This document shows, in pieces, positions 6,001-9,000 of a stretch of DNA of 40,160 bases; position 1 is the first letter of the stretch, and each line of letters starts with the position of its first letter. Source of the DNA: a virus (lineage: Duplodnaviria; Heunggongvirae; Uroviricota; Caudoviricetes); IMG/VR virus record IMGVR_UViG_2548876867_000015, positions 1 through 40,160 of that record. One strand, written 5' to 3'. Position numbers: made by a program.

Positions 6001-9000
6001 TATCAAGGGTTGCTTTAACCGTCTGTGACCCATAACCAACCAAGTCAGATCCAGTTGGCTTGGCTAGCTCGATCAATACGTCAGACGCAGACCCTGATGG
6101 AGGAAGCACAACAATAGGGTTACCATCGTTATCGAAAGCAGGCATCTTGTTTGCGCGGGAGGCAGCATCAGGAAGTTGCGGTATCTGCTCCTGAACGCGC
6201 AAAGTACACCCCAGGTTAGAACTGAGCTGTGTATCAACATAATTTTTAGTGGCTGCATCTTGGGGGGTTGAAGGATCGCGTAAGTTTCTGATGTAATTGT
6301 TAAGCGCATCATAATAATTTGCCACGAATGACGGCTTACGCAGCGCCAAGCTAAACCAACTTCGAACTTGCTGGATCAGCATCGTTAGCTTATCAAAAGC
6401 ATCCTCATGCACTTCTGCAAAGAACTTACCCTGATTACGCAAATCAGTTTCCTGCGTAACCGGGAGCTCTCGTGATATAGAAATCTGATAACCGCTAACC
6501 AATTCCTTCGACAGAATTATATTGCCACCATTGTATCCTCCAGCCCCAGTAACTATGTAATCAGTGTCAAGAATCAGCTCTGTGATGTTCTCGTTCAGGT
6601 CAACAACCTGCACTACTAAATCAGATTTCTGGAAAATTCTGAAGGTATAAGGGAATGTCGTTGTAACACCGTTACCGGTGTATTCGTTGTGGTCAACTTC
6701 GGTTGAGACCGTCATGTTAAATCTCCAGATAGTCGCAGCACCCGTTGCGCCGCATATCCGGTTATTCTATTACCTGAAAAACCACATATGGATATATAAT
6801 CCATGAATACGAACAGATATTACCTTTCAGGTGATTCGCAAAACGTGCTGGATAGCAAACAAATTATTTGATACTGTATATTTATACAGTTATTGCATGG
6901 AGAAGATAAGATGCAGCAGTATCACTATCCACTGGAAGACGGATTTACCGAAAGGATTCACACGCCGGGAGGCGTCAGGTCACTGGTGGAGGGATCGCAC
7001 TTGATGAAATTACTCCGGGATCTCGATAAGGATGGATTTAATGTCGATGGCCCACTTGCCGAACTGACTGCACTGATTAACTACGTCACCAGCTCACAGA
7101 TGTCTATGCGGGATCTGCAAACACATCTCGACTATTGTGCCGAACAATTACGAAAACAAACCAGATAAGGTTTGCAATTACCAAGTGGAGTGCTTATATT
7201 TACCTTTTCGGTAAATTTACATCGCACTCCTCTTGTGCCATAGTAATCGGGCACTGGCAAAATCCAGTGCCGGGATTGGCGTCCCGAGTTACTAAGTGGC
7301 GCATACCACGCCAGACGTGGTTTTTTTATGCGTTAAGCACAGCTATATCCGAATTATGGTGGGCTGGGCAGGGGTCCGAAAGGACGCCGGTACCACTTAG
7401 GCCGGTACGCCAACCTTGTCCAGTTCACCACCAGTAATTGGCGTTGCGGTGGTGATTAAAATTACTAAGTGGAGATAACCACCATGGCTAATGCTCAAAC
7501 TGCCATCTTCAAATTTGAATCTGTTAACCCTATCCGTTCCATCATTATCAATGGCCAACCATGGTTTGTAGCCCAAGACGTTTGTAGTGCGCTGCGTATC
7601 CAAAACGTCACCCAAGCACTTGAAAAACTGGATGATGATGAAAGGTCTATGTTCAACATAGGGCATGAACATCGTGCAATTTTTGACAGCCGAGTAAAAG
7701 AGATCAACATCATCTCCGAGTCAGGCCTCTACACACTGATCCTCCGCTGCCGCGACGCAGTGACACCAGGCACTATCCCCTACCGCTTTCGTAAATGGGT
7801 TACAGGTGAGGTTCTTCCTCAGATCCGCCGCACCGGAAGTTACATTAAAAACTCGCTCCCGCAGGAAGAACGCATAAAGATGGTTGCCGACCAGGTAGCC
7901 AACGCCACGGCGTCAGCAGTGATGCAGGCGATGAAGATAGAGAACAAAACCTACAGCGCCCCGCTGAAGCCAGGCTACCGCAGCCTGATTCACTCGCCGT
8001 CTGGTGTTCTCGGCCTGACGGAGAACTCACTGCTGATGAATCTGCTGAACCAGTTACAGGAAGACGGGCACGACGTATCGGGCGCGGCGGCGGAGCTGAC
8101 CACCATGTTCTGCTACATCGTCGGTGTGAGCAAATGCCTGCGTGATATCCAGACGCACGCGGAGTACATCAACGACAAAGCAGGGTTCTTCTGACGGGCG
8201 GTGGCACAGGGATGTGCTTCTGACATAATCATTTGCGGTGTGATGTAGATTCACGTAAGATTACCTTAAAGGTAAACCATGTGTTTACATGAGGAGGAGA
8301 TATGGGATTTTGGTTCGCTCGTACAAAAACGAGGGATAATGCACCCAGCCCTCAGGCAAAAAATGCAGAAGTTCCGGCGTCAGCGCAGGTTAACAAGCGT
8401 GGTGGAGTGTATATCTCATCACAGCAAATTTCTGAGCTTCCTGAGGTTAAGGAGATGCGTCGTCTCGCTGCTGCAATTGTTAAACAGGATCTTGCCACTG
8501 TAAGGAAATAGTGTTGTTAGCTCTTCTAATTATCCCCATTCTGGTTAGTGGTTATATTATGATAACCGCTAACCAGTATCATTACTTCCGTTTATACCGA
8601 CATGAAGGCCAGCTTCTTTATATGAAAGTAGCTGCATTAGGTACATATTGCCTTATTGCTTCAGTAATAATTGCAGCCGCTATAAAATATAAATGGCCTG
8701 ATTTTCACCTAGTCCATGATATGGTGGAAACTTTTAATGTAACGTCAAAACCAGAAACAGATAGAATTTACATGTGGCTGCTTCTTCTGTCAGCTACATC
8801 CATTTGCTTCTCTTTGTGTTATGTATCTGCTGTTTGGGTAAAAAATGTTCTTTTTGGTTTTTTTTATAAACGTGATATTTATGAAGGAATATTAGAGGCA
8901 ATGAAAGCCAGAGTATTGCGAAAAACATACTCACAAGGCTCTTTAGACTTGTTATTACTTGATGCAATCGAATCAGATCCAAAGAAACCAATGTTGATTA

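What the first reader, a model, noticed from the sequence alone, without database searches (positions are those of the whole stretch)
6893..8194. Standalone duplicate of the antirepressor C-terminal domain upstream of the full-length gene
Seen in sequence: the 85-91 aa product of 6911..7168 aligns by eye with the last roughly 60 residues of the 7484..8194 antirepressor (GVRSLVEGSHLMKLLRDLDKDGFNVDG-PLAELTALINYVTS / GVLGLTENSLLMNLLNQLQEDGHDVSGAAAELTTMFCYIVG, then LQTHLDYCAEQ / IQTHAEYINDK). It has its own RBS and operator-bearing promoter region. Inference: a decoy or modulator that competes for the repressor-binding surface or titrates the antirepressor.
Basis: partly seen in the sequence, partly recalled or inferred. 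Interest (0 to 1): 0.5.

Follow-up and report, generated by a model that had tools for sequence, protein, structure and literature searches.

The report
SOS antirepressor and its fused paralog
The short gene is not a decoy: it is this phage's copy of a well-studied, DNA-damage-triggered antirepressor (Ant of Salmonella phage SPC32H), and the larger 'antirepressor' downstream is an optional second gene that carries a diverged copy of the same domain under antisense-RNA control.

Summary
The observed similarity is real: the 85-aa product of 6911..7168 matches the last ~80 residues of the 236-aa Bro-N protein (7484..8194) at 43% identity, E 2e-16. The short protein is the ortholog (about 87% identical, E 1e-46) of SPC32H Ant, an 86-aa antirepressor crystallised with its repressor (PDB 5D50). 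The window also encodes that repressor (34477..35061). A near-consensus LexA box lies 38 bp upstream of the short gene at a position conserved across genera. SPC32H has this Ant and no Bro-N gene, so the short gene works alone.

The Bro-N gene belongs to an accessory cassette with its own promoter, an IsrK-like RNA and a C4 antisense RNA. Two C4 segments pair with sites in IsrK and over the Bro-N ribosome-binding site, and all three co-vary across nine phages, as in the P1/P7 immI region. The Ant-like domain is also found fused to AntA, Rha and ORF6N heads.

Best reading: two antirepressors share one probable repressor-binding module. One is gated by SOS and the other by RNA immunity. Each half is a known kind; I did not find the pairing described in the papers I could search. 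Interest is modest.

The parts
6820..6834 (.). TTACC-N5-GGTGA palindrome (one mismatch), a putative Rep operator upstream of the ant promoter
   Evidence: The motif occurs 12 times in the window against 0.54 expected. It lies at -91/-89 from the ant ATG in all nine related phage loci. That Rep binds it is an inference.
6872..6891 (.). LexA (SOS) box TACTGTATATTTATACAGTT
   Evidence: It has 2 mismatches to the 20-bp consensus, and no other 20-mer in the 40 kb comes within 5 mismatches. An exact CTGT-N8-ACAG lies upstream of ant in 12 of 17 genomes examined (window included): at -38 from the ATG in 11 and at -48 in 1. The other 5 have ATGT-N8-ACAG.
   Evidence: PDB 5D50 chain E 'Anti-repressor protein', E 1.4e-46. 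86.7% identical to the annotated ant of SPC32H. phrog_450, E 7e-48.
7200..7214 (.). TTACC-N5-GGTAA palindrome abutting the -35 of the isrK promoter (putative Rep operator)
   Evidence: Exact match. It lies at -51 (-48 in phiV10) from the isrK 5' end in all eight related phage loci, including those where insertions separate ant from isrK.
7216..7244 (+). Promoter-like site TTTACA-17-CATAGT with TG extension (PisrK)
   Evidence: Found by the consensus scan. It is conserved in 8 of 9 loci, and its -10 ends 7 nt before the isrK 5' end.
7251..7327 (+). IsrK-like sRNA with an intrinsic terminator (stem 7305..7321 plus a T run). It carries C4 target copies a1 (7276..7282) and b1 (7292..7299).
   Evidence: Rfam RF01394, 67.2 bits against a gathering score of 50. 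Terminator. Complementarity.
7352..7435 (+). C4-type antisense RNA. Recognition segments: b' 7393..7400 (CCACTTAG, in a hairpin loop) and a' 7407..7413 (ACGCCAA, single-stranded junction).
   Evidence: Rfam RF01695, 66 bits against a gathering score of 45, with the structure line shown.
7439..7472 (+). C4 target sites in the Bro-N leader: a2 7439..7445 (TTGGCGT) and b2 7465..7472 (CTAAGTGG). b2 overlaps the Shine-Dalgarno GGAG at 7471..7474.
   Evidence: Read from the sequence. Four b alleles and three a alleles co-vary at all three sites over nine loci.
7484..8194 (+). Bro-N domain 7532..7819; Ant-like C-terminal domain about 7946..8176.
   Evidence: Pfam Bro-N, E 5.7e-20, residues 17-112. 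Residues 155-231 match 5D50 chain E at E 1.2e-13. phrog_450 matches residues 153-234 at E 4e-36.
34477..35061 (+). rep: 194-aa prophage repressor, the expected target of both Ant-domain proteins
   Evidence: PDB 5D50 chain A 'Repressor', E 6.6e-42, and 5D4Z, E 3.7e-20. 41.7% identical to the annotated rep of SPC32H. It is the only Rep-like sequence in the window.

Best explanation
The window is an epsilon15/phiV10-like (Uetakevirus) temperate phage genome. Gene 6911..7168 is its SPC32H-type Ant, a small antirepressor kept off by host LexA. After DNA damage, LexA cleavage should free the promoter. Ant is then made, binds the repressor Rep (34477..35061), breaks up its DNA-binding tetramer and so induces the prophage. 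The gene at 7484..8194 is a second antirepressor. It joins an N-terminal Bro-N head to a diverged copy of the Ant domain, which I infer to be its Rep-binding part. It belongs to a separate, optional cassette with P1 immI-like logic. A promoter (PisrK) makes a short IsrK RNA that mostly terminates at 7305..7327. Read-through yields the C4 antisense RNA and the Bro-N mRNA. C4 pairs with two sites in the leader, one over the Shine-Dalgarno sequence, and blocks translation. IsrK carries the same two sites and can compete for C4. So one repressor-binding module is wired to two inputs: SOS through LexA for the short form, and an allele-specific RNA immunity switch for the fused form. The second input probably serves anti-immunity on superinfection or SOS-independent induction. 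Shown here: the homologies, the LexA box, the RNA elements with their three-way covariation, and the modularity of the cassette. Taken from the literature on orthologs: the LexA-Ant-Rep mechanism in SPC32H, and the pro-lytic effect of the Bro-N protein in ZX5. Inferred: that the fused domain binds this Rep, that C4 represses and IsrK relieves, and the biological role of the second input.
For: The short protein matches PDB 5D50_E at E 1.4e-46, and Rep matches 5D50_A from the same entry at E 6.6e-42. SPC32H annotates the ortholog as ant. It lies in the same position between the tailspike gene and the structural block, with no Bro-N gene and no isrK/C4. The LexA box is the single best site in the window and is positionally conserved. 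[quoted passage not shown] Ant and Rep occur in the same phage records: 35 records with Ant, 36 with full-length Rep. The C-terminus of the Bro-N protein matches 5D50_E at E 1.2e-13. isrK and C4 score above Rfam gathering and lie directly upstream of the fused gene in 13 of 14 other loci that have the pair, and in none of the 4 loci without it. The C4 a'/b' segments lie in a junction and a loop, and they co-vary with both targets. Insertions separate ant from the cassette in TL-2011b, EC.W1-9, KpST512 and Kp4865-1. Overexpressing the ZX5 ortholog of the Bro-N protein (81.5% identical) cut lysogens about 1000-fold and lowered repressor transcripts (PMC9782041). The same C-terminal domain is fused to Bro-N, AntA, Rha and ORF6N heads, as expected for a portable effector module.
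Against: There is no direct evidence that the fused domain binds Rep. It is only 43% identical to Ant and forms a separate clade. Ant and Rep do not diverge in step: Ant is 87% but Rep only 42% identical between the window and SPC32H, so specificity cannot be read from sequence. The phiV10 lineage carries a 16-bp frameshifting deletion in the fused domain, so the second antirepressor is dispensable at least there. The consensus scan found no sigma-70 promoter around the LexA box. In Gifsy-1, IsrK was shown to act through a coupled upstream ORF (orf45), and that ORF is absent or truncated here. I could not read the two primary SPC32H papers, so their results are cited second-hand.
Confidence: 0.72

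Rival explanations
1. One reading: the short protein is a decoy or modulator. It either occupies the repressor surface without inactivating it, or it titrates the full-length Bro-N antirepressor.
For: The domain is shared. SPC32H Ant is reported to be a tetramer, so homologous domains could in principle co-assemble.
Against: The ortholog is a functional antirepressor in a phage with no Bro-N gene. It was crystallised bound to Rep. A LexA-repressed gene is built to switch induction on, not to damp it. In the phage collection the short gene occurs without the long one in 16 of 35 records, and every full-length hit to the long gene lies in a record that also has the short one.
Confidence: 0.04
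2. Reverse modulation: the Bro-N fusion enters mixed tetramers with the short Ant. It would either poison them or tether them through the Bro-N head, and so tune the SOS threshold rather than act on Rep itself.
For: The domains are homologous and the known form is tetrameric. The two genes are adjacent in many genomes.
Against: The ZX5 ortholog pushed the phage toward lysis when overexpressed alone. The clades diverged long ago, and the last helix differs strongly. The cassette is often separated from ant by inserted genes on the other strand.
Confidence: 0.1
3. Cross-talk weapon: the fused domain is tuned to repressors of other, co-resident or competing Uetakevirus-like prophages rather than to the phage's own Rep.
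For: It is only 43% identical to the resident Ant. Ant and Rep phylogenies are incongruent. Trans-acting antirepressor cross-talk is documented for Gifsy/Fels prophages. Three C4 alleles are seen among phages whose Rep is at least 98.5% identical.
Against: The N-terminal helix-turn-helix region of Rep and the TTACC-N5-GGTAA sites are conserved across all these phages, so own and foreign Reps may not differ at the relevant surface. ZX5 ORF4 acted on ZX5 itself. This model overlaps with the best explanation rather than excluding it.
Confidence: 0.1
4. The fused copy is decaying cargo with no present role in the switch.
For: There is a frameshift in phiV10 and the O157 typing phages, and an in-frame deletion variant, P0145.
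Against: Intact 226-238-aa orthologs are conserved at 70-99% identity across Escherichia, Salmonella, Citrobacter, Enterobacter and other genera. Their RNA control elements show compensatory covariation, which implies selection.
Confidence: 0.04

Closest known systems
Ant-Rep-LexA antirepression switch of Salmonella phage SPC32H (Kim & Ryu 2013, J Virol; Kim et al. 2016, PNAS; PDB 5D50, 5D4Z)
   Same: Same phage genus. The short gene is about 87% identical, the same length and in the same genomic slot. The LexA box is at the same offset. A Rep ortholog is present.
   Different: Rep is only 42% identical. SPC32H has no Bro-N paralog and no isrK/C4 cassette.
immI region of phages P1 and P7 (c4 antisense RNA - icd - ant; Citron & Schuster 1990, as cited in PMC8201110)
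   Same: A C4-family RNA lies upstream on the same strand as an antirepressor gene. Two recognition segments are matched by one target pair upstream and one pair at the RBS. Specificity is allelic among phages that share the main repressor.
   Different: There is no icd-like coupled leader ORF. The antirepressor here is a Bro-N/Ant-domain fusion. The upstream target copy is packaged as a terminated IsrK sRNA. The main repressor is Rep, not C1.
Gifsy-1 isrK-orf45-anrP-isrJ locus (Hershko-Shalev et al. 2016, PMC4825925)
   Same: An IsrK sRNA with its own promoter and a leaky terminator is followed by a processed C4-like RNA (STnc1160 there) and an antirepressor-like gene that induces the prophage.
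   Different: There is no orf45 ending at the antirepressor start: the only ORF that starts in the C4 region is 14 codons and stops inside b'. Rfam found no isrJ. Homology of AnrP to this protein was not tested. Here a LexA-controlled Ant gene lies just upstream.
LexA-controlled small antirepressors Tum (coliphage 186) and GfoA/GfhA (Gifsy phages)
   Same: The same logic: LexA represses a small protein that inactivates a repressor that RecA does not cleave.
   Different: A review calls SPC32H Ant homologous to Tum. I did not test that, and the Ant-domain profile found only 60 representative clusters.
Bro-N / AntA / Rha / ORF6N 'phage antirepressor' two-domain proteins
   Same: An N-terminal head of these families joined to a variable C-terminal module.
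   Different: Here the C-terminal module can be identified as the SPC32H Ant fold family. That module has no Pfam or NCBIfam model, and its PHROG (phrog_450) is listed as unknown function.

Membership tests
SPC32H-type Ant (small LexA-controlled antirepressor; PDB 5D50 chain E; phrog_450) | Full-length sequence homology to SPC32H Ant | tested here: met
   E 1.4e-46 over residues 2-84. 86.7% identity by tblastn to the annotated ant gene.
SPC32H-type Ant (small LexA-controlled antirepressor; PDB 5D50 chain E; phrog_450) | Single-domain protein of about 86 aa | tested here: met
   85 aa from ATG 6911.
SPC32H-type Ant (small LexA-controlled antirepressor; PDB 5D50 chain E; phrog_450) | LexA box in the promoter region | tested here: met
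   TACTGTATATTTATACAGTT at 6872..6891. It is unique in the window and at a conserved offset, including in SPC32H. LexA binding itself is not testable here.
SPC32H-type Ant (small LexA-controlled antirepressor; PDB 5D50 chain E; phrog_450) | Cognate Rep-type repressor in the same genome | tested here: met
   34477..35061 matches 5D50_A at E 6.6e-42. The two genes co-occur across phage records.
SPC32H-type Ant (small LexA-controlled antirepressor; PDB 5D50 chain E; phrog_450) | Binds Rep and dissociates its tetramer | not testable with these tools
   Known for the ortholog only.
Bro-N domain proteins (PF02498) | Bro-N domain above the Pfam gathering score (gene 7484..8194) | tested here: met
   72.2 bits against a cut-off of 25.6, residues 17-112.
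Bro-N domain proteins (PF02498) | Antirepressor activity of the protein | not testable with these tools
   Only indirect evidence: overexpression of the ZX5 ortholog reduced lysogens.
P1/P7-type immI (C4 antisense RNA-controlled antirepressor) | C4-family RNA upstream of, and on the same strand as, the antirepressor gene | tested here: met
   RF01695, 66 bits against a gathering score of 45, at 7352..7435.
P1/P7-type immI (C4 antisense RNA-controlled antirepressor) | Two C4 segments complementary to an upstream and a downstream target pair, the downstream pair at the RBS | tested here: met
   a'/b' pair with a1/b1 in isrK and with a2/b2 in the leader; b2 overlaps GGAG. Four b alleles and three a alleles co-vary at all sites.
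P1/P7-type immI (C4 antisense RNA-controlled antirepressor) | icd-like leader ORF translationally coupled to ant | tested here: not met
   No listed ORF of 30 aa or more ends next to ATG 7484, and the ORF from ATG 7356 stops at 7400.
P1/P7-type immI (C4 antisense RNA-controlled antirepressor) | Antirepressor protein homologous to P1 Ant | not tested
   Only the Bro-N and Ant-like domains were identified.
Gifsy-1 isrK-orf45-anrP-isrJ locus | IsrK sRNA with its own promoter and intrinsic terminator | tested here: met
   RF01394, 67.2 bits. Promoter-like site 7216..7244 and terminator 7305..7321.
Gifsy-1 isrK-orf45-anrP-isrJ locus | orf45-type upstream ORF coupled to the antirepressor gene | tested here: not met
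   The only ORF that starts in the C4 region is 14 codons and stops inside b'.
Gifsy-1 isrK-orf45-anrP-isrJ locus | isrJ sRNA downstream | tested here: not met
   No isrJ match at gathering score anywhere in the window.

The most novel reading that the evidence does not exclude
The short Ant and the Bro-N fusion co-assemble through their homologous, tetramer-forming domains. The ratio of the two (SOS input against RNA-immunity input) would then set the activity or DNA localisation of a mixed antirepressor complex.
Probability: 0.1. Interest if true: 0.6.

Novelty: new member of a known kind. Interest (0 to 1): 0.3.

Why it matters
It corrects annotation on a large scale. The short gene is called 'hypothetical protein' in RefSeq E. 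coli genomes and in most phage records, although its ortholog has a crystal structure with its repressor. The locus matched in 534 of 5426 complete E. coli genomes. A recent experimental paper on the close relative ZX5 studied only the Bro-N protein and did not mention the short Ant, LexA or SPC32H. The homology also assigns a likely function, Rep binding, to the unannotated C-terminal module of one subfamily of Bro-N, AntA, Rha and ORF6N 'antirepressors'. If the model holds, these phages are a compact system in which one repressor is attacked through one domain under two separate controls. C4 alleles would then create P1/P7-like heteroimmunity among phages with identical repressors: TL-2011b Rep is 100% identical to the window's, but its C4 recognition loop differs. 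All of this is directly testable.

Tried and rejected
The AlphaFold2 model of the Bro-N fusion, built from a 12-sequence alignment, was unusable (mean pLDDT 42.7). I ran no fold search on it, and the domain assignment rests on sequence matches to 5D50.

The primary SPC32H papers (PMC3807360, PMC4983836, DOI 10.1073/pnas.1602618113) are not held. I therefore could not map Rep-contact or tetramer-interface residues onto the fused domain.

NCBIfam gave no meaningful hit for either protein. Pfam has no model for the Ant domain; the only hit was a sub-threshold DUF724 match.

The genome-contig scan returned only 7 loci because its degenerate pattern was narrow.

The sequence ACCAAGTGGAG at 7181..7191 resembles the C4 b target. 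I rejected it as a target because it is unchanged in phiV10, whose C4 allele differs.

The hairpin after the ant stop (7186..7231) has no T run. Its centre is the TTACC-N5-GGTAA site, so I read it as an operator rather than a terminator.

The consensus scan found no promoter at the LexA box. TTGATA (6868..6873), a 17-bp spacer, then TATTGC would place the box across the spacer, but that is by eye only.

I found no second Rep-like protein in the window that could be a separate target of the fusion.
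Full report
**Observation**

The region holds two same-strand genes. ATG 6911..7168 encodes 85 aa. ATG 7484..8194 encodes 236 aa. BLASTP aligns residues 2-75 of the short protein with residues 155-228 of the long one at 43% identity, without gaps, E 2e-16. A tblastn of the short protein against the whole window finds only these two copies.

**What the short gene is**

A search of PDB sequences with the short protein returns one hit: chain E of entry 5D50, 'Anti-repressor protein', 86 aa, E 1.4e-46, aligned end to end. tblastn against phage genomes shows that this is the gene annotated 'ant: anti-repressor protein' in Salmonella phage SPC32H, 86.7% identical. 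In SPC32H it lies in the same slot, between the divergent tailspike gene and the structural block.

The window is itself an epsilon15/phiV10-like (Uetakevirus) genome: 98% identical over this region to phage HEMP4 and 92% to phiV10. It also encodes the partner protein. ORF 34477..35061 (194 aa) matches chain A of the same PDB entry, 'Repressor', at E 6.6e-42, and is 41.7% identical to SPC32H rep. It is the only Rep-like sequence in the window.

Secondary sources describe the system as follows. After LexA self-cleavage, Ant is made and inhibits the repressor by protein-protein contact (PMC7380047). [quoted passage not shown] Ant contacts the C-terminal tetramerisation domain of Rep (PMC9986798). 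I could not read the two primary papers.

**LexA control**

TACTGTATATTTATACAGTT at 6872..6891 has two mismatches to the 20-bp SOS-box consensus. No other 20-mer in the 40 kb comes within five mismatches. An exact CTGT-N8-ACAG lies upstream of ant in 12 of 17 genomes examined across Escherichia, Salmonella, Citrobacter, Enterobacter and other genera. It is at -38 from the ATG in 11 of them and at -48 in one. The five Klebsiella/Superficieibacter-type loci have ATGT-N8-ACAG instead. The N8 spacer varies while the half-sites stay fixed, as expected for a functional box.

**The short gene is the core and the long one is accessory**

- SPC32H, epsilon15, SPN1S and the other Salmonella records have a single Ant-domain copy, and SPC32H has no Bro-N gene.
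- In the phage collection, 19 of 35 Ant-bearing records have a second copy. Every full-length hit to the fused gene lies in a record that also has the short gene.
- In TL-2011b, EC.W1-9, KpST512 and Kp4865-1, genes inserted between ant and the second gene separate the two.
- phiV10 and the O157 typing phages carry a 16-bp frameshifting deletion inside the Ant-like part of the long gene. P0145 is an in-frame deletion variant.

These facts contradict the idea that the short protein exists to modulate the long one.

**What the long gene is**

Residues 17-112 are a Bro-N domain (Pfam E 5.7e-20). Residues 155-231 match 5D50 chain E at E 1.2e-13 and phrog_450 at E 4e-36. Neither Pfam nor NCBIfam has a model for this C-terminal domain.

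A profile of the domain, searched against 1.84 billion representative proteins, finds only 60 clusters at E below 1e-3. They are either standalone proteins of about 85-95 aa or the C-terminal end of longer proteins. The N-terminal heads of those longer proteins are Bro-N, AntA, Phage_pRha or ORF6N. One AntA fusion (P0122) has a C-terminus identical to the window's. In a neighbour-joining tree the standalone forms (window, SPC32H, Tyrion, Klebsiella) and the fused forms fall into separate clades. The duplication is therefore old, and the fused version is a shuffled module.

Intact orthologs of the 236-aa protein are common in Enterobacteriaceae. The locus matched in 534 of 5426 complete E. coli genomes, where the short gene is annotated 'hypothetical protein'.

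One experiment bears on function. In phage ZX5, overexpressing ORF4, the 81.5%-identical ortholog of the Bro-N fusion, lowered lysogens from about 1e9 to 1e6 and reduced repressor transcripts by 75% (PMC9782041). That paper does not mention the short Ant, LexA or SPC32H.

**How the long gene is controlled**

Rfam places an IsrK RNA at 7251..7327 (67.2 bits, gathering 50) and a C4 antisense RNA at 7352..7435 (66 bits, gathering 45) in the 315-bp spacer. A promoter-like site, TTTACA-17-CATAGT with a TG extension, ends seven bases before the IsrK 5' end. An intrinsic terminator closes IsrK at 7305..7321 plus a T run.

Both RNAs lie directly upstream of the fused gene in 13 of 14 other loci that have the pair, and in none of the four that lack it.

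C4 has two recognition segments:
- b', CCACTTAG (7393..7400), lies in the loop of a hairpin.
- a', ACGCCAA (7407..7413), lies in a single-stranded junction.

Each is complementary to one site in IsrK (b1 7292..7299; a1 7276..7282) and one in the Bro-N leader (b2 7465..7472; a2 7439..7445). b2 overlaps the Shine-Dalgarno GGAG at 7471..7474.

Across nine phages there are four b alleles (CCACUUAG, CCUUUUAG, CCUUUGUAG, CCGUUUAG) and three a alleles. In every phage both targets match the resident C4, with G-U pairs at most. This is the a/b architecture of the P1/P7 immI region, where c4 RNA blocks antirepressor translation (summarised in PMC8201110).

It is also the layout of the Gifsy-1 isrK locus. 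There, IsrK activates translation of the antirepressor-like AnrP, and a processed RNA complementary to IsrK lies between them.

There are differences from both models. No icd- or orf45-like ORF ends at the Bro-N start: the only ORF that starts in the C4 region is 14 codons and stops inside b'. No isrJ was found.

**A possible link to Rep**

The palindrome TTACC-N5-GGTAA occurs 12 times in the window against 0.54 expected; no shuffle reached more than 3. It clusters around rep. It also sits at fixed positions: -91/-89 from the ant ATG, and -51 (-48 in phiV10) from the IsrK 5' end, abutting the -35 hexamer. This holds in every related phage locus, including those where ant and isrK are separated. 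The N-terminal helix-turn-helix residues of Rep are conserved across these phages although overall identity is only 42%. I read the motif as the Rep operator, but that is an inference. Whether Rep bound there represses or activates the isrK promoter cannot be decided from sequence.

**Most likely mechanism**

- Arm 1 rests on ortholog data. LexA holds ant off, DNA damage releases it, and Ant dismantles Rep.
- Arm 2 is inferred. The isrK promoter yields mostly short IsrK. Read-through yields C4 plus the Bro-N mRNA. C4 occludes the RBS. IsrK, or any transcript that carries a1/b1, competes for C4.

Three C4 alleles occur among phages whose Rep is at least 98.5% identical. TL-2011b Rep is 100% identical to the window's, yet its b' allele differs. 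The cassette would therefore give P1/P7-like heteroimmunity: a superinfecting phage with a foreign C4 allele could express its fusion antirepressor and defeat the resident Rep.

No terminator is evident between ant and isrK in the window. SOS-induced ant transcripts may therefore carry IsrK sequence and help titrate C4. That coupling cannot be general, because the two units are separated in other phages.

**Rivals**

- The decoy model is contradicted by the ortholog's independent function.
- Mixed oligomers of the two paralogs are not excluded and are the most novel open reading. The ZX5 result and the deep divergence of the two clades argue against it.
- A cross-talk role against foreign Reps is compatible with the incongruent Ant and Rep divergence and overlaps with the anti-immunity reading.
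- Decay is contradicted by broad conservation and by compensatory RNA changes.

**Novelty**

The short gene is a known protein's ortholog. C4/IsrK-gated antirepressors are a known kind. In the papers I could search, I did not find either of these points described: that the C-terminal domain of this Bro-N/AntA/Rha/ORF6N subfamily is the SPC32H Ant domain, or that phiV10-like phages combine the LexA-gated form with an RNA-gated fused form. This is a useful annotation and a testable circuit. It is not a new kind of system.

Noticed in passing
window 6820, 7200, 8261, 26511, 29468, 29486, 32014, 32076, 34359, 34407, 35119, 35181: The palindrome TTACC-N5-GGTAA occurs 12 times (at most 1 mismatch) against 0.54 expected. 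It clusters around rep and sits at fixed offsets before ant and isrK in all related phages. It is probably the Rep operator. Sites lie 62 bp apart twice (32014/32076 and 35119/35181).
   Followed up: partly
window 8279..9901: AT-rich (31-35% GC) cargo just after the Bro-N gene, with its own promoter-like site and a TTACC-N5-GGTAA site at 8261. ORFs 8511..9374 (287 aa) and 9398..9901 (167 aa) have no Pfam or PADLOC match. This may be a moron or a defence candidate.
   Followed up: partly
L001 (phiV10) about 2830, aligned to window 8046..8061: A 16-bp deletion frameshifts the Ant-like domain of the phiV10 Bro-N gene, splitting it into PhiV10p23 (194 aa) and PhiV10p22 (29 aa). The O157 typing phages 9 and 10 also match in two pieces.
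   Followed up: partly
window 6911..7168 and 34477..35061 compared with L002/L019 (SPC32H): Ant is 87% identical between this phage and SPC32H, but Rep is only 42% identical. SPC32H Rep looks closer to the Klebsiella-phage Rep, whose Ant is only about 63% identical to the window's. Ant and Rep therefore do not diverge in step.
   Followed up: partly
L005 (TL-2011b) 3773..3858 compared with window 7352..7435: TL-2011b Rep is 100% identical to the window's Rep, but the C4 recognition loop differs (CCUUUUAG against CCACUUAG), with matching changes in both targets. This is a candidate for P1/P7-style heteroimmunity.
   Followed up: partly
L017 (E. coli E2386) 6596..7490: In this locus the Bro-N/Ant-domain gene is preceded by a CDS annotated as a TacA-family antitoxin, with no isrK or C4. 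It is the only locus with the pair that lacks the RNA cassette.
   Followed up: no
L004 (ZX5) 2455..2568: A CDS annotated 'ash family protein' lies over the C4 RNA and the Bro-N leader. It is probably a conceptual translation of the RNA gene. In the window the comparable ORF is cut to 14 codons by a TAG inside the b' segment.
   Followed up: partly
window 7186..7231: A hairpin lies after the ant stop codon (GGAGTGC ... GCACTCC enclosing TTTACC-N5-GGTAAA). In phiV10 it is a perfect 18-bp palindrome. It has no T run, so it is probably an extended operator rather than a terminator.
   Followed up: partly
window 26848..26924: A tRNA-Arg (anticodon TCT) gene lies within the phage genome.
   Followed up: no
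window 34477..35061: Rep carries two helix-turn-helix-like regions: residues 21-61 (weak YdaS/HTH match) and residues 106-147 (HTH_3, E 1e-9). The second lies in the part that matches the 5D4Z fragment.
   Followed up: no
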